The position numbers and the translations under genes were made by a program. Shown here in pieces: positions 48,147 to 53,338 of a stretch of 64,000 nucleotides of DNA. The notes under the pieces were generated by a model, which searched no databases, was not told the DNA's origin, and worked only from the letters and a program-made list of their open reading frames with translations. This stretch comes from Ginsengibacter sp. (GTDB lineage Bacteria; Bacteroidota; Bacteroidia; Chitinophagales; Chitinophagaceae), in assembly GCA_051959325.1 (NCBI GenBank), contig JBQCFI010000289.1, forward strand, positions 28,142 to 92,141, read 5' to 3'. How positions within the stretch are numbered: position 1 is the stretch's first letter; each line of letters begins with the position of its first letter.

Positions 48147-50174
48147 ATGATAAATACAAATCGGAACCATGTTCATACTTATGATGCACAAGGAAGAATG
48201 ACTTGTTGTTCTGAGGAGGAAAAAATTTATTCAAAAGCGAACGCAACAGATTTGCTAAATGAGCCTAAAGAAGATAGTAAAATTAAAAAGCCTGACCATT
48301 ATAATAAACAACGAAATGATACATGGAAGCCTTATGTTCCTGCATTTATAAGTTTCATAATGCTCATAATTGGCATTTCATTAGATTATTATTTCAAGCC
48401 TGTTTTCTTTTCAGGATATGTTCGTTTAACATGGTACATTATTGCTTATTTACCAGTTGGGTTACCGGTAGTGAAAGAAGCTATTCAATCAATCAGGAAA
48501 GGTGCGTTCTTTTCTGAATTTTTTTTGATGAGTATAGCAACAATTGGTGCGTTTGCTATTAAACAATATCCGGAAGGAGTTGCTGTAATGTTATTCTATG
48601 CCGTTGGAGAGCTTTTTCAAACAGCAGCCGTGAGAAAGGCCAAACGGAGTATTAAAGCGTTATTAGATGTACGGCCTGATATAGTAACAGTAATTAGAAA
48701 CGGAGAAGTAAAAACTGTTGCACCCTCTGAAATTTCAATTGCTGAAATTATTCAGGTAAAGCCAGGAGAAAAAGTTGCTTTGGATGGAGAACTGATTTCA
48801 GAAACTTCATCTTTCAATACCTCTGCGCTAACAGGAGAAAGCAAGCCTGACACAAAACGCAAAGGAGAAGAAGTTTTGGCAGGAATGATAAATCTCAATA
48901 CCGTTACTGACATAAAAGTTACCGCGCTTTTCAAAGACAGTAAACTTTCCAGAATTTTAGAAATGGTACAGGATGCAACAGCGCGCAAATCACCCACGCA
49001 ACTTTTTATTACGAAGTTTGCCAAAGTTTATACACCTATTGTTGTGTATTTAGCAATCGCAATAATAATCGTTCCTTACTTTTTTGTAAGCGGTTATATC
49101 TTCAGCGATTGGCTCTACAAAGCTTTAATATTCCTGGTAATTTCTTGTCCTTGTGCATTGGTTGTTTCTATTCCACTTGGATATTTTGGAGGAATAGGCC
49201 TGGCTTCGCGAAACGGAATTTTGTTTAAGGGAAGTAACTTTTTAGATGCCATCACTTTTGTAAATACAGTTGTGATGGACAAGACAGGGACGATTACAAA
49301 AGGTGTTTTTAAGGTGCAGGAAGTTATTGCACAAAATATAGATGAAAAAGAATTACTTAAATATGTTGCAGCATTGGAAAGTAAATCTACACATCCTGTT
49401 GCTACTGCTATTGTACAATATGCTGGTAATATTTTTCAAAATCTTAAAATAGAAAATGTAGAAGAAATTCCGGGACTTGGAATGAAAGGTAAAATTGATG
49501 GAATTGAAGTTCTTGCCGGAAATCAAAAGTTGCTTGATAAATTTAAAATCAAAAATAACTTTGATTCGGAGAATATTACTGATACCATTGTTTTAGTAGC
49601 TGTGAATAATCAATATGCTGGATATATTGCTATTGCCGATGAAATAAAGGAAGATGCGAAGCAGGCTGTTGAGCAATTGCATCAACTGAAAATAAAAACG
49701 GTGATGCTATCAGGCGACAAGCAAAGTGTGGTAGATAAGGTTGCAAAAGAATTAACGATTGACGAAGCTTACGGAGATTTGTTTCCGGAAAATAAAGTTG
49801 AAAAAGTTGAGCAATTAAAAAAACAAAATCTGAAAGTTGCTTTTGCAGGCGATGGTGTAAACGATGCGCCTGTAATCGCTTTAGCCGATGTAGGAATAGC
49901 CATGGGTGGATTAGGAAGTGATGCGGCAATAGAAATAGCTGATATAGTTATTCAAAATGACCAACCATCCAAAATTCCTACAGCTATTCGAATTGGAAAA
50001 GAAACCCGAAAAGTTGTTTGGCAAAATATCTCTTTGGCGTTTGGAGTAAAATTAATCGTTTTGGTGCTCGGTGCCGGTGGCTTGGCTACTTTATGGGAAG
50101 CGGTCTTTGCAGATGTAGGTGTAGCGCTATTAGCTATATTAAATGCTGCGAGAATCCAGAGGATGAAACTATAA
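48147..50174 (+). CDS. zntA: Zn/Cd/Pb P1B-type ATPase (ZntA/CadA-like)
   Basis: N-terminal HVH..CC, TGES, SCPCALV, DKTGT, GDGVNDAP, WEAVFADVG; ATG 48147. Confidence 0.9.
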   Translation: MINTNRNHVHTYDAQGRMTCCSEEEKIYSKANATDLLNEPKEDSKIKKPDHYNKQRNDTWKPYVPAFISFIMLIIGISLDYYFKPVFFSGYVRLTWYIIAYLPVGLPVVKEAIQSIRKGAFFSEFFLMSIATIGAFAIKQYPEGVAVMLFYAVGELFQTAAVRKAKRSIKALLDVRPDIVTVIRNGEVKTVAPSEISIAEIIQVKPGEKVALDGELISETSSFNTSALTGESKPDTKRKGEEVLAGMINLNTVTDIKVTALFKDSKLSRILEMVQDATARKSPTQLFITKFAKVYTPIVVYLAIAIIIVPYFFVSGYIFSDWLYKALIFLVISCPCALVVSIPLGYFGGIGLASRNGILFKGSNFLDAITFVNTVVMDKTGTITKGVFKVQEVIAQNIDEKELLKYVAALESKSTHPVATAIVQYAGNIFQNLKIENVEEIPGLGMKGKIDGIEVLAGNQKLLDKFKIKNNFDSENITDTIVLVAVNNQYAGYIAIADEIKEDAKQAVEQLHQLKIKTVMLSGDKQSVVDKVAKELTIDEAYGDLFPENKVEKVEQLKKQNLKVAFAGDGVNDAPVIALADVGIAMGGLGSDAAIEIADIVIQNDQPSKIPTAIRIGKETRKVVWQNISLAFGVKLIVLVLGAGGLATLWEAVFADVGVALLAILNAARIQRMKL

Positions 50175-50321
50175 AGGATTAATGAGATTGTTGCACATGT
50201 ATATTTTATAAAATAACATGGTTATTAAGAGCAACACATTCAATACTGTCGTAGCCGGTTCTGATGTAGCTTTAGAAACAGCAAATATTGATTTGGAGAA
50301 AAGTAAATTCCTACTGCTGTT

Positions 50322-50528
50322 TCATGACGTAATCCAGCCTTTCTCCGTTCTCATGTCTATGATTTCATTAAGCAGCAACCAGTGGCGAAATGAATTTGCA
50401 TCATCAGGTGTAAAATGGATAATCCTTCCATCTTTCAGCATAATGGTAAAAAAATCTGAGGCAGCTAAAAATTTAAATAATTCTGAGGCTGGATAGTCAA
50501 ATCCGGGATAACGGCTGTTTACGCTCAT
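50322..50528 (-). CDS. Small hypothetical protein (68 aa)
   Basis: Clean ORF downstream of a structured leader and a -7 box (TACTTTTG, 50748-50741). Confidence 0.65.
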   Translation of the reverse strand: MSVNSRYPGFDYPASELFKFLAASDFFTIMLKDGRIIHFTPDDANSFRHWLLLNEIIDMRTEKGWITS

Positions 50529-50598
50529 AACGCTTGATTTTAGGTTTACACATTAGCCGTTGCCGTCTTTAAAAAATAAGCGCAGGCAACAGCTTACC

Positions 50599-50703
50599 GC
50601 ACTGAGGTCTTAGGAACCGGTAACGAATAAGTGCGCCCACGCCGTAGCATGAGCGTTTTCCACTTATGTCCCGTTACCTTCGAAAGTTCCTAAGTTTCAG
50701 TGC
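50599..50703 (-). ncRNA. Long four-segment hairpin leader RNA of unknown class
   Basis: Nested perfect arms GCACTGA/TCAGTGC, CTTAGGAAC/GTTCCTAAG, GGTAACG/CGTTACC, ATAAGTG/CACTTAT. Confidence 0.7.
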
Positions 50704-50894
50704 AGGACTTAAAGCAAAAACGCTTCAAGAATATTTTGTGCAAAAGTAGTGTTTCGGATTAAAATAAGGCAATAAAAAGCACAGCTCTGCTTTCCGATTA
50801 AAAATCGGTAGCCTCGCTTTGTTTCCAACAATATGGCATAACTAAATTATTATCGCTTTAACAACAATAGGTCTGAAAAGCGATTGAGCAAACG

Positions 50895-50922
50895 CCAGTA
50901 TAAAATAACCAGTATAAAATAA
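50895..50922. repeat. Perfect 14-bp tandem duplication
   Basis: CCAGTATAAAATAA x2. Confidence 0.85.
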
Positions 50923-50959
50923 AGTACACTTTTTCTAAGAAGCTGGCAGAACCTAACAA

Positions 50960-51502
50960 TTATCTGTCCTGTTTCTTTTCCAGTCGCCAACCATCATCAT
51001 ATAAAGCAAAGTAAGCCTGATGAATATTTTCCTTTGAAAAGTCCGTATTGACTAACGAGGAAAAGGGAGTAACATTCTTATAGGTGGTTGTATATTCTGC
51101 AACTGCACTTTTTCCATCATCCATCATTTTGATGCCGGTCACTTCTTTTAGTTGTTCTTCAGCCAATTTTACCTTTTGTACGTTTATGGATTTATCCTTT
51201 TCGGAGGTTGGCAATAAGTATGGTTCGGCTTTAGCTGAAAGCGCGATGATAGGCTTACCCACATCACTTAATTTCTGAGTATGTTGTATGGTTAAAAGAC
51301 CCTTTGATTCCAAACCTGCATCAAGCACTTTTTTTGCAAATTCAGGGTCACCGCAAAAAATATCATAGTCAACTACTTTAGGATAAGTGGTTTGCTGTTT
51401 AAGGAGATTCATGGCTTCTTCTCTACTTAAGTTTTTGTTATCATTGGAACAAGCTGTTAATAGAGTACACACAGCAAAAAGGGCGAATAGTACATTTTTC
51501 AT
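50960..51502 (-). CDS. Hypothetical lipoprotein
   Basis: MKNVLFALFAVCTLLTAC lipobox. Confidence 0.8.
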   Translation of the reverse strand: MKNVLFALFAVCTLLTACSNDNKNLSREEAMNLLKQQTTYPKVVDYDIFCGDPEFAKKVLDAGLESKGLLTIQHTQKLSDVGKPIIALSAKAEPYLLPTSEKDKSINVQKVKLAEEQLKEVTGIKMMDDGKSAVAEYTTTYKNVTPFSSLVNTDFSKENIHQAYFALYDDGWRLEKKQDR

Positions 51503-51863
51503 AGCTATAAAAATTAAGGGGCCATAAAATTACAAATTTTACCGTTTTTAAAAAACGATTGATAAAAAAGGAACTTTAAGTCCGCTAACAATCTAATGTA
51601 ATAAACTGCATCCGGATAACACCCAATACAACCTGGAGAACGTTTTTGTTGGATAAAGAGATTAGAAAATAGGTGCTGTTCAAAATAATTTGTACCATGG
51701 TTCATAGCTTTTTGGTGTGGTAATCATTTGAGCTATGAAAAAGGGCTTGATTTGCTTAACCCTTTCTTTTATTCTTTTTCTAGGCAATGAGAGAAAATGA
51801 ATAAATTAAAAAACGTGTTTTGATTCTTTGTGATTTCTTTTATTATCTTCGCGCACTTTTCAC

Positions 51864-51921
51864 AGGAAATGGTGTCTTCCTGAACCAACCGCTTGGCCTT
51901 ATAACCAGCTAATGGCGCCTA
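51864..51921 (+). ncRNA. Fluoride riboswitch (crcB motif) #1
   Basis: GGAAATGGTGTCTTCC-TGAACCAACC-GCTTGG..CCAGC-TAATGGCGCCTAC directly upstream of CLC(F); -7-like TATCTTCG at 51844-51851. Confidence 0.92.
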
Positions 51922-51961
51922 CAAATTATTAGTAGTAATAAACCCGTTATAATTTGTAGGA

Positions 51962-53338
51962 ATGAAGCGAATCAAAACCTCGTTTGAACATATTTTCATA
52001 GTATCTCATCTTCTAAAATGGACGCTGCTTGTATTGCCTGTTTCCATTTCCATTGGCTCAATGGTAGCGTTGTTTCTTTGGCTTTTAGAGAAGGCGATTG
52101 ATTTTCGTTTTGCTCATCAGTGGCTGTTGTTTCTTCTTCCTTTAGCAGGTATTCTTATTTATTTTTTGTACAAATATTTGGGGAAAAATTCTGAAGGCGG
52201 CAACAATCTTATTATGGATGAAATCCATGAACCAGGAGGCGGAATTCCGGCAAGAATGGCACCTTTGGTTTTGTTAACGACTATTATCACACATCTTTTT
52301 GGTGGTTCTGCAGGAAGGGAAGGAACTGCAGTTCAGATTGGCGGAAGCATTGCGCAATTTTTTGCCAGAAAATTTAATCTCACCAAAGAAGAAGTAAAAA
52401 TGTTGTTACAGACAGGAATCGCAGCAGGCTTCGGTGCGGTATTTGGAACACCTATTACCGGCGCCATATTCGCACTGGAAGTTTTGGCAGTAGGCAGAAT
52501 AAAACATGATGCATTATTACCTTGTTTCATGGCAAGTGTTTTGGCAGATATTACCTGCAATGCGTGGGGCATTCACCACACTCAATATCACATGAATTTG
52601 ACAGAAGTTGGCAACACACTTTTTTTAAATTTCCATTTTGATTTTCTGTTATTGATTGAAGTAATTATTGCAGGAGTACTTTTCGGTTTGGTTGGTTTTT
52701 TATTTGCTGAGACCTCACACACCATTTCAAATTATAGTAAAAGATTCATTAAAATCCGCTGGCTGATTCCTGCAATTGGCGGTATAGCGATTATTGCCTT
52801 TACTTATATTTTAGGAACACGTGATTATTTAAGCTTGGGTGTTTTCAATCCTGATAAAAATGGAGTTTCTGTTCTCTCCTGTTTTCAAGCGGGAGGCGCG
52901 ACTTCCTTAAGCTGGTTATGGAAATTATTGTTTACTGCCATTACTCTAGGAACAGGTTTTAAAGGCGGGGAAGTAACACCGTTATTTTTTATTGGAGCAG
53001 CATTAGGAAATACTATTGCGGTACTTACCGGAGCGCCGGTTGATTTAATGGCTGGCCTGGGTTTTATCGCAGTATTTGCGGGAGCTACGAACACACCAAT
53101 AGCTTGCACGCTAATGGGAGTGGAATTATTTGGAGGAGGTAATGTGCTTTACTTTGCTGTGGCTTGTTTTTCCGCCTATTATTTCAGTGGTCATTCCGGT
53201 ATTTATCATTCGCAAAGAGTCGCTGTTTCTAAAGTGAATCATTTAAATCATCATACAAATACCACACTTTTGGAAGTGCGGAATAAAAGAATAAAAAAGA
53301 GAAAACAATGGATAAAAAAATCAAAACTCATTCGTTAG
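51962..53338 (+). CDS. eriC: CLC-family fluoride/H+ antiporter (CLC-F)
   Basis: The F-specific clade signatures GNNLI, GREGT and GEVTP are all present. Confidence 0.93.

What the first reader, a model, noticed from the sequence alone, without database searches (positions are those of the whole stretch)
50521..50748. 105-nt hairpin leader whose loop can pair with either the 5' end or the start codon
Seen on the minus strand: -7 box (50748-41), a four-segment perfect hairpin (50703-50599), then ATG 50528. The loop holds AAAACGCTCAT. AAAACGCT is complementary to the 5' AGCGTTTT (50724-50717) and the overlapping ACGCTCAT is complementary to ATGAGCGT, the first 8 nt of the ORF. Inference: mutually exclusive pairings form an RNA switch or antisense-controlled leader, reminiscent of mobile-element control RNAs. 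It sits at the metal/fluoride module border.
Basis: partly seen in the sequence, partly recalled or inferred. Interest (0 to 1): 0.62.

Follow-up and report, generated by a model that had tools for sequence, protein, structure and literature searches.

The report
Two-state leader RNA on Bacteroidota conjugative elements
The hairpin is real and belongs to a previously uncatalogued, phylum-wide family of about 180-nt leader RNAs, often on conjugative elements, that can fold either as one long hairpin or as two hairpins, the second a transcription terminator.

Summary
The minus strand carries a -7 box, a small 5' hairpin (P0), a 109-nt five-helix hairpin, a U-tract and the ATG of a conserved 68-aa ORF.

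The element is not a one-off. A covariance model finds full-length copies in 44 of 401 genomes of the order, 61 of 401 of the class, and in other classes of Bacteroidota. No Rfam 15 family matches 21 tested members.

The long hairpin (fold I) is strongly supported: 91.6% of cells paired and 967 double-change cells against 259 in shuffles. G·U outnumbers A·C by 496 to 56, so the sense strand folds.

A second conserved fold (fold II) splits the RNA into a 5' hairpin and a 3' hairpin that ends 0-3 nt before the U-tract, a terminator. The nucleotides conserved in fold I's internal loops pair in fold II.

The start-codon pairing occurs only in the window's closest relatives.

Copies sit just upstream of varied genes and co-occur with MobB relaxases.

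Most likely this is a kinetically controlled terminator/antiterminator leader. Its trigger is unknown, and no transcript data could be obtained.

The parts
50741..50748 (-). Bacteroidota-type -7 promoter box TACTTTTG. The predicted transcription start is a few nt downstream.
   Evidence: Read directly. A TAnnTTTG box lies within 45 nt upstream of the model start in 36 of 84 family members, usually at -11 to -22.
50529..50737 (-). The whole leader RNA, from just after the -7 box to the start codon.
   Evidence: Covariance model R1 matches 50559-50737 at 201.9 bits. The region folds at -98.3 kcal/mol, z = -6.9.
50708..50729 (-). P0 hairpin, CUUGAAGC-GUUUUU-GCUUUAAG. It contains r1 (AGCGUUUU, 50724-50717).
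   Evidence: All nine pairs of helix 1 show changes on both sides; 86.8% of cells are paired. r1 pairs with r2 in fold II.
50597..50705 (-). Long hairpin (fold I). P1 is 50705-697 with 50605-597. P2 is 50694-685 with 50618-609. P3 is 50678-671 with 50626-619. P3b is 50667-661 with 50633-627. P4 is 50655-647 with 50642-634. The loop UACG is 50646-643.
   Evidence: -59.3 kcal/mol, z = -8.7. Across 83 distinct sequences, P1 is 98.0% paired, P2 91.9%, P3 97.2% and P4 98.8%.
50647..50659 (-). r2 (AAAACGCUCAUGC). It is the 5' strand of P4 in fold I and the partner of r1 in fold II.
   Evidence: columns 19-148 show GC:47, AU:7, UG:4, UA:3.
50627..50642 (-). Shared strand r3 plus the 3' strand of P3b (GCGUGGGCGCACUUAU). 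It pairs with r2 and the 5' strand of P3b in fold I, or with the 3' tail in fold II.
   Evidence: GCGUGGG is nearly invariant. Variants are compensated in the tail in L054, L065, L118, L089, L094 and L112.
50580..50596 (-). The 3' tail (UAAGCUGUUGCCUGCGC), which is the 3' strand of the terminator helix T. r4 is CCUGCGC at 50586-50580.
   Evidence: 78 of 82 members have a 7-of-7 complement to r3 lying 8-15 nt after P1. Folding the 3' half alone gives a -25.3 kcal/mol hairpin ending at 50580.
50571..50579 (-). U-tract (UUAUUUUUU) directly after helix T.
   Evidence: A run of at least four U begins 0-3 nt after r4 in 66 of 82 members. The columns are nearly invariant.
50559..50567 (-). r5 (GACGGCAAC). 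It pairs back to the 5' part of the tail (GUUGCC) and encloses the U-tract in a loop in read-through transcripts.
   Evidence: The family-wide r4:r5 complementarity averages 6.45 for own partners against 6.08 for swapped partners, with 0 of 500 swaps as high.
50322..50528 (-). The 68-aa ORF downstream of the leader. It is a conserved small protein of unknown function.
   Evidence: 38 homologues with 16 invariant residues and no Pfam or NCBIfam hit. The AlphaFold2 model has pLDDT 76.7 (three strands and a helix) and no PDB match at E below 0.01.

Best explanation
The region encodes a leader RNA of about 180 nt, transcribed from a Bacteroidota -7 promoter in front of a small ORF on an integrative conjugative element (ICE). 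It belongs to a phylum-wide family built to adopt two exclusive folds.

Fold I is P0 plus one long five-helix hairpin, in which the 5' half pairs with the 3' half. This sequesters the strand GCGUGGGCG-CACUUAU, so no terminator forms and transcription reads into the gene. The tail then pairs with a downstream segment (r5).

In fold II each half folds on itself.
- The 3' half forms a long hairpin (GCGUGGG:CCYRCGC, ACUUAUC:GGUAAGU, GGGU:ACCU) that ends right before the U-tract. This is an intrinsic terminator.

Fold II is the locally, co-transcriptionally favoured fold. Fold I is the thermodynamic ground state. Which one exists when RNA polymerase reaches the U-tract would set expression.

Shown: both folds are conserved and covary, and members lie in 5' UTRs of varied genes, often near relaxase genes.

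Inferred: that termination is what is regulated, and that a factor acting on P0 or the 5' half tips the balance. That factor could be a protein, an antisense RNA or polymerase speed.
For: Fold I:
- 57 pairs, 91.6% of cells paired, against 34-44% when partners are slid.
- 967 double-change cells against 259 in shuffles, with 0 of 500 shuffles as high.

Sense-strand folding:
- G.U 496 cells against A.C 56.
- -59.3 against -45.7 kcal/mol for the two strands.

Fold II:
- The 5' halves alone fold into the same nested structure in 11 diverse members, at -15 to -25 kcal/mol.
- The 3' halves alone give -25 to -32 kcal/mol hairpins ending at the U-tract.
- On an alignment fitted to fold I, fold II is 77.2% paired against 41-55% slid. 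Its covariation score is 0.229 against 0.173, with 0 of 500 shuffles as high.
- Swap tests for r1:r2, r3:r4, P3b-3':tail and r4:r5 all exceed 500 swaps.
- Six of eight r3 variants are compensated in r4.
- The conserved 'loop' nucleotides of fold I (GAAAA, UUUUC, GGG, CCUC) pair in fold II.

Energies:
- Fold I is -55 to -71 and fold II -46 to -55 kcal/mol.
- A growing chain has fold II's 5' domain as its minimum-energy structure at 90-96 nt, and fold I from 108 nt.

Context:
- A same-strand ORF starts within 60 nt in 50 of 83 loci and in 35 of 42 further loci.
- An own promoter is present.
Against:
- Fold I is 8-24 kcal/mol more stable than fold II, so termination would need kinetic trapping or a factor that has not been identified.
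- In many members 2-3 nt (often UGA) separate helix T from the U-tract. Seven of 82 lack a U4 run nearby.
- Conserved structure continues beyond the U-tract (r5 and a downstream hairpin loop GGGAC), which fits translational or stability control as well.
- Fold II statistics are weaker than fold I. They are partly implied by fold I once an arm is self-complementary, and the sequences are phylogenetically related.
- The simple terminator scan finds nothing, because the loop exceeds 8 nt.
Confidence: 0.6

Rival explanations
1. The switch acts after transcription. The two folds, together with r4:r5 and the downstream hairpin, control translation initiation, RNase III or RNase E processing, or mRNA stability. 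The U-tract would be a protein-binding or unstructured enhancer segment rather than a termination signal.
For: - Conserved complementarity r4:r5 and a covarying hairpin with a GGGAC loop lie beyond the U-tract.
- A 2-3 nt spacer separates helix T from the U-tract in many members.
- Bacteroidota lack Shine-Dalgarno-based initiation (established knowledge), so leader structure matters for translation.
- In the window's own clade, r2 can also pair with the start codon.
Against: - Helix T followed by a U-tract has the canonical intrinsic-terminator geometry in 66 of 82 members.
- The start-codon pairing is not conserved.
- In several subfamilies the start codon lies 70-230 nt away.
Confidence: 0.17
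2. It is a stand-alone small RNA of about 165 nt, from its own promoter to the U-tract, that acts in trans or binds a protein. The downstream genes would be incidental.
For: - It has its own promoter and a terminator-like 3' end.
- There are 1-6 copies per genome in varied contexts.
- The downstream genes have no common function.
Against: - A same-strand ORF follows within 60 nt in 50 of 83 loci and in 35 of 42 further loci.
- Conserved pairing extends past the U-tract.
- In its ground state the RNA is an almost fully paired rod with no free seed region.
Confidence: 0.1
3. It works as single-stranded DNA of the conjugative element. It would be a single-strand origin or priming site for the element's primase, or an Frpo-like single-strand promoter for early genes after transfer.
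For: - Strong association with MobB relaxases: 19 of 44 RNA-positive genomes are MobB-positive, against 3.3 expected.
- A primase gene lies about 1 kb downstream in most close relatives.
- The element lies upstream of genes pointing toward the mobilisation module.
- A TAGCGT-like motif occurs in the P0 loop of many members. It resembles the CS-6 box of ssoA origins; this resemblance is from memory and was not tested.
Against: - Pairing is selected on the coding (sense) strand: G.U 496 against A.C 56. That is the wrong strand for a template-strand promoter.
- The -7 promoter just upstream, the U-tract after helix T, the r4:r5 pairing and the tight spacing to start codons are RNA-type features.
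- 25 of 44 carrier genomes have no MobB of this family.
Confidence: 0.06
4. It is a selfish palindromic repeat (MITE, REP or Correia-like) with no regulatory role.
For: It is a long inverted repeat, patchily distributed, with several copies in some genomes.
Against: - Copies within one genome are divergent, for example 208 to 54 bits in G294.
- There is only one blastn copy in the own genome.
- Conservation is phylum-wide, with hundreds of compensatory changes, a fixed orientation and fixed spacing to the downstream ORFs.
Confidence: 0.02

Closest known systems
Antisense-RNA-mediated transcription attenuation in the replication-control leaders of plasmids pT181, pIP501 and pAMbeta1
   Same: - A leader on a mobile element in which a long-range 'preemptor' pairing (5' segment with central segment) excludes a terminator (central segment with 3' segment plus U-tract) just upstream of the gene.
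- Sequestering the 5' segment lets the terminator form.
- The two hairpin domains of fold II have complementary loops (the two P2 strands), like an antisense RNA and its target, but here in cis.
   Different: - No countertranscript or opposite-strand promoter has been shown here.
- The regulated genes are not replication genes.
- The whole 5' half is complementary to the whole 3' half.
- The family spans a phylum and many gene types.
Classical terminator/antiterminator leaders (trp-type attenuators and riboswitch expression platforms)
   Same: Four-segment logic, 1:2 plus 3:4 (terminator with U-tract) against 2:3 (antiterminator), in a 5' UTR on the same strand as the gene.
   Different: - No conserved leader peptide: the only AUG, in the P4 5' strand, is CACG in 62 of 82 members.
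- No recognisable ligand pocket: the conserved unpaired nucleotides of one fold pair in the other.
- No Rfam family matches.
Rod-versus-branched bistable RNAs (the LDI/BMH switch of the HIV-1 leader; viroid rod versus metastable hairpins)
   Same: A long, nearly fully paired rod is the ground state. Conserved metastable local hairpins form first during synthesis.
   Different: Unrelated sequences and hosts. Here the branched form carries a bacterial intrinsic terminator.
Frpo/ssi single-strand DNA elements in the leading regions of conjugative plasmids
   Same: A long imperfect hairpin next to mobilisation genes and upstream of early or accessory genes of a conjugative element.
   Different: The structure is selected on the coding strand with RNA-like G.U usage. 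It has an ordinary promoter upstream and a terminator-like alternative fold.
The tetQ-rteA-rteB leader of the Bacteroides conjugative transposon CTnDOT (translational attenuation)
   Same: A structured leader with alternative hairpins controlling genes of a Bacteroidota conjugative element.
   Different: That leader depends on a 3-codon leader peptide and on tetracycline-stalled ribosomes (from memory). There is no such ORF here and no sequence similarity was seen.

Membership tests
Any Rfam 15 family | A covariance-model match at or near the family's gathering score | tested here: not met
   No match at E<=10 over window 49000-52500 except the fluoride riboswitch at 51856-51928. No match at E<=0.1 on the element in 20 diverse members.
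Terminator/antiterminator leader (attenuator or riboswitch platform) | Two mutually exclusive helices share one strand, and one of them is followed by a U-tract | tested here: met
   r3 plus the P3b 3' strand pairs either with r2 and the P3b 5' strand or with the tail. A U4+ run begins 0-3 nt after the tail helix in 66 of 82 members. Compensatory changes are seen.
Terminator/antiterminator leader (attenuator or riboswitch platform) | Lies in the 5' UTR, on the same strand as the controlled gene and close to it | tested here: met
   A same-strand ORF starts within 60 nt in 50 of 83 loci and 35 of 42 further loci, and within 300 nt in 74 of 83. A -7 box lies upstream.
Terminator/antiterminator leader (attenuator or riboswitch platform) | Condition-dependent termination at the U-tract | not testable with these tools
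Riboswitch (metabolite- or ion-sensing) | A conserved aptamer whose invariant unpaired nucleotides form a ligand pocket, and a coherent regulon | tested here: not met
   The invariant internal-loop nucleotides of fold I (GAAAA, UUUUC, GGG, CCUC) pair with each other in fold II. The downstream genes are functionally unrelated.
Ribosome-mediated attenuator (trp type) | A conserved short leader ORF overlapping segment 1 or 2 | tested here: not met
   The only AUG inside the element (CUCAUGC) is CACG in 62 of 82 members (columns 154-220). The UUG-initiated frame in P0 ends after 5 to 12 codons in different members (alignment).
Antisense-RNA-controlled attenuator (pT181/pIP501 type) | A countertranscript from the opposite strand, complementary to the 5' part of the leader | not testable with these tools
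   By eye, no conserved TAnnTTTG box was found on the opposite strand of the alignment. This needs strand-specific RNA-seq.
Single-strand DNA promoter or origin (Frpo, ssi, sso) | Hairpin selected on the transferred/template DNA strand | tested here: not met
   Pairing is selected on the coding strand: G.U 496 against A.C 56 cells, and -59.3 against -45.7 kcal/mol. Which strand is actually transferred is unknown.
MITE/REP-type palindromic repeat | Many near-identical copies per genome at unrelated sites | tested here: not met
   There are 1-6 divergent copies per genome. The own genome has one blastn copy plus one 70-bit model hit.

The most novel reading that the evidence does not exclude
The family is a Bacteroidota-wide RNA device carried on conjugative elements. 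It is a cis-encoded 'antisense pair', two complementary hairpin domains in one leader. It gates accessory, regulatory and possibly anti-defence genes, such as orphan methylases, HEPN and PLD proteins, and the 68-aa ORF. The signal would be tied to the state of the element, for example arrival in a new host or an element-encoded RNA-binding factor acting on P0. That would make it the regulatory counterpart in this phylum of the leading-region early-expression systems of proteobacterial plasmids.
Probability: 0.2. Interest if true: 0.85.

Novelty: new variant of a known kind. Interest (0 to 1): 0.72.

Why it matters
If confirmed, this adds a widespread structured RNA class to a phylum whose RNA regulation is poorly charted. 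It is present in roughly 10-15% of the sampled Bacteroidota genomes, including Flavobacterium, Chryseobacterium, Pedobacter, Alistipes and Prevotellaceae.

The family is tied to integrative conjugative elements that move metal, arsenic and fluoride resistance. It would give a handle on how such elements control accessory and possibly early-expressed genes.

The design is also unusually clean. Nearly every conserved nucleotide is explained by one of two competing folds, which makes it a good natural model for kinetic, co-transcriptional RNA switching.

Cultured carriers exist, so the question is directly testable.

Tried and rejected
- Rfam scans of the window region and of 20 diverse members found nothing on the element.
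- blastn of two members against plasmid and phage collections gave no match.
- Five literature searches and one paper (the UpxY leaders of Bacteroides capsule operons) gave no description of this element.
- Earlier notes of this scan say nothing on this element.
- The tool for finding sequencing runs was closed, so there is no transcript evidence.
- A conserved upstream ORF was sought and not found.
- The 68-aa protein has no Pfam or NCBIfam family and no convincing PDB fold match. The best is the FtsH N-domain at E = 0.011.
- Integron attC site or invertible promoter: rejected. Copies are not in arrays, the arms are contiguous rather than flanking a promoter, and pairing is RNA-like on the sense strand.
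- A small local terminator hairpin proposed by RNAalifold (GAGC..GCUC) was superseded by the longer helix T. Helix T explains the same covariation plus the r3 variants.
- The simple terminator scan reports none here because it allows loops of at most 8 nt.
- The pattern scan of genome contigs returned some non-Bacteroidota records. The covariance model rejected most of them as chance matches.

Full report
**1. The observation**

- The -7 box TACTTTTG lies at 50748-50741.
- AGCGTTTT lies at 50724-50717.
- A long hairpin follows.
- AAAACGCTCAT lies at 50659-50649.
- The ATG is at 50528.

The hairpin (50705-50597) folds at -59.3 kcal/mol, with z = -8.7 and 0 of 200 shuffles as good. The complementary strand reaches only -45.7, a first sign that G.U pairs, and so the sense strand, matter.

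One correction applies. The 27-nt 'loop' folds into a fifth helix, P4 (CGCUCAUGC/GCGUGGGCG). The hairpin therefore has five segments: P1, P2, P3, P3b and P4.

A small hairpin, P0 (50729-50708), precedes the long hairpin. A U-tract (50579-50571) follows it, and a third hairpin encloses that U-tract.

**2. It is a family, not a singleton**

The 68-aa ORF is a real, conserved small protein. It has 38 homologues and 16 invariant residues, but no Pfam or NCBIfam family.

Of 38 genomic loci encoding it, 35 carry the same leader architecture.

A covariance model built from 25 leaders (R1) finds full-length matches as follows.

| Sample | Genomes with a match |
|---|---|
| Own order | 44 of 401 (1-6 copies each, including a second copy in this genome) |
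| Class | 61 of 401 |
| Phylum sample | 30 of 301, four of them in other classes |

Named carriers include Flavobacterium ichthyis, Chryseobacterium takakiae, Moheibacter sediminis, Pedobacter chinensis, Alistipes putredinis, and Prevotellaceae and Dysgonomonadaceae MAGs.

No Rfam 15 family matches the element in the window or in 20 diverse members. blastn against plasmid and phage collections, and my literature searches, found nothing.

**3. Fold I**

On 83 distinct sequences (alignment A5):
- the P0-plus-long-hairpin structure is 91.6% paired;
- 52 of 57 pairs change on both sides;
- there are 967 double-change cells against 259 in shuffles (0 of 500 as high);
- sliding the partners gives only 34-44% pairing.

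G.U plus U.G cells number 496 against 56 A.C plus C.A. Selection therefore acts on the coding strand, as expected for RNA.

**4. Fold II**

The apex 3' strand GCGUGGG is almost invariant. A tail segment is complementary to it in 78 of 82 members. This segment is CCCACGC, CCUGCGC or CUCACGC, and lies 8-15 nt after P1. In 66 of 82 members it lies 0-3 nt before the U-tract.

Eight sequences vary in r3. Six carry the matching change in the tail:
- L054: ACGUGGG with CCCACGU
- L065: GCGUGGA with UCCACGC
- L118: GCGUGAG with CUCACGC
- L089 and L094: GCGCGGG with CYCGCGC
- L112: GGGUGGG with UCCACCC

The next tail segment, GGUAAGU, likewise pairs with the 3' strand of P3b.

Folding the 3' half alone gives a hairpin of -25 to -32 kcal/mol that ends at the U-tract. 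Folding the 5' half alone gives the same nested structure in 11 diverse members:
- r1 (AGCGUU in P0) with r2 (AACGCU);
- the P0 3' strand with the P3b 5' strand;
- the start of the P1 5' strand with the end of the P3 5' strand;
- GAAAA with UUUUC.

The nucleotides that are invariant but unpaired in fold I are GAAAA, UUUUC, GGG and CCUC. All of them are paired in fold II.

Fold II was scored on the alignment fitted to fold I. It is 77.2% paired against 41-55% for slid partners. Its covariation score is 0.229 against 0.173 in shuffles, with 0 of 500 as high.

Swap tests (own partner against partners from other members) exceed all 500 permutations for r1:r2, r3:r4, P3b-3':tail and r4:r5.

Two caveats apply. 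The sequences are related. And part of fold II follows automatically once an arm of fold I is self-complementary.

**5. Energetics**

Fold I is -55 to -71 kcal/mol and fold II is -46 to -55. The direct-path barriers are about 27-38 kcal/mol, a heuristic upper bound.

For a growing chain of the window's RNA:
- P0 is in the minimum-energy structure up to 84 nt;
- the fold II 5' domain takes over at 90-96 nt;
- fold I takes over from 108 nt.

The RNA therefore looks built for kinetic competition. In fold II the two domains expose the two complementary P2 strands as loops. This would allow a kissing-loop route to fold I, as in plasmid antisense systems. That last point is inference.

**6.

The 5' pairing is r1:r2 of fold II. 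It covaries in three classes:
- AGCGUU with AACGCU;
- AGCAUU with AAUGCU or GAUGCU;
- AGCUUU with AGRGCU.

Own partners pair at 5.53 of 6 on average, against 5.26 for swapped partners.

The start-codon pairing is 8 bp in the window and 7 bp in L008-L010. In 20 other leaders, 19 of them in front of the same ORF family, it is at chance level (3-5 bp, mostly the trivial CAUG). It may be a recent, clade-specific addition, but it is not a family feature.

**7. Context**

In close relatives the gene order is RadC, a lipoprotein, the RNA, the 68-72-aa ORF, (DUF6843), a 97-aa ORF on the other strand, a primase, MobA, the MobB relaxase, and a YWFCY/coupling protein. This is the mobilisation backbone of Bacteroidota conjugative elements.

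In this genome the MobB gene lies on the same contig and strand, 53 kb downstream. Most of the resistance island in the window therefore sits between the leader's small ORF and the mobilisation genes.

Across the order, 19 of 44 RNA-positive genomes carry this MobB family, against 3.3 expected. Many copies lie within 65 kb of it.

In more distant members the downstream gene varies. Examples are:
- ECF sigma factors;
- SusC-like receptors;
- histidine kinases and response regulators;
- N6/N4 and MmeI-like methylases;
- HEPN and PLD proteins;
- tail-collar proteins.

A same-strand ORF nevertheless starts within 60 nt in 50 of 83 loci, and in 35 of 42 further loci. This argues for a cis-acting leader rather than a free-standing sRNA, and against a metabolite riboswitch.

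**8. Mechanism and confidence**

That this is a conserved structured leader RNA with two alternative conserved folds I hold at about 0.9.

That the output is transcription termination against read-through, decided kinetically, I hold at about 0.6.

The trigger is unknown. Candidates are a factor on P0 or the 5' half (protein or antisense RNA), or polymerase speed.

The rivals are post-transcriptional control, a trans-acting sRNA, a single-strand DNA function of the element, and a selfish repeat.

**9. The small protein**

AlphaFold2 gives a three-strand-plus-helix fold with pLDDT 76.7. It has no PDB match better than E = 0.011. Its function remains unknown.

Noticed in passing
window 50895-50922 (minus strand): A perfect tandem duplication of the 14-mer TTATTTTATACTGG lies about 150 nt upstream of the leader's -7 box, between the lipoprotein gene and the leader. 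It may be a regulator-binding site or a recombination scar.
   Followed up: no
G000:C289:23863-25149 (about 3 kb before the window start) relative to window 50322-50748: A MobB relaxase lies 53 kb downstream of the leader on the same strand. In relatives the leader's small ORF sits only 0.5-5 kb from the primase-MobA-MobB module. Most of the arsenic, metal and fluoride island in this window therefore looks like cargo inserted between the two.
   Followed up: partly
L110:1715-1781: A DUF805 RNA motif (Rfam RF03081, 65 bits) lies 30 nt after a family member and just before a WG-repeat protein gene, so two leader motifs stand in tandem.
   Followed up: no
L112:1058-1133: A Flavo-1 RNA (RF01705, 63 bits) lies about 370 nt upstream of a family member.
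   Followed up: no
L080:1501-1691 and L090:1501-1715: Two copies keep the window-type 5' half almost intact, then diverge abruptly near the apex (after P3b or P4). The middle of the hairpin may be a breakpoint for recombination or insertion.
   Followed up: no
window 50531-50537 (minus strand): In the window's clade, AAGCGUU, a copy of the r1 motif, sits immediately upstream of the AUG. The r2 segment can therefore pair on both sides of the start codon. This is absent from other clades.
   Followed up: partly
upstream 20-28 nt of group-B family members (e.g. L065, L072, L110, L117, L118): Members without a TAnnTTTG box share a TATGTAAA or TATAGAWAA-like motif 20-28 nt before a conserved ACATAT at the 5' end of the RNA. 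This may be a different promoter type.
   Followed up: no
window 51856-51928 (+): A fluoride riboswitch (RF01734, 45.7 bits) lies upstream of the CLC-type gene at 51962. It is divergent from the lipoprotein and leader unit.
   Followed up: no
L248, L245, L246 (IMG/VR contigs): Three of the eight pattern hits in viral contigs are true family members (151, 67 and 49 bits). The element therefore also occurs on contigs classed as viral, or on conjugative elements misclassified as viral.
   Followed up: partly
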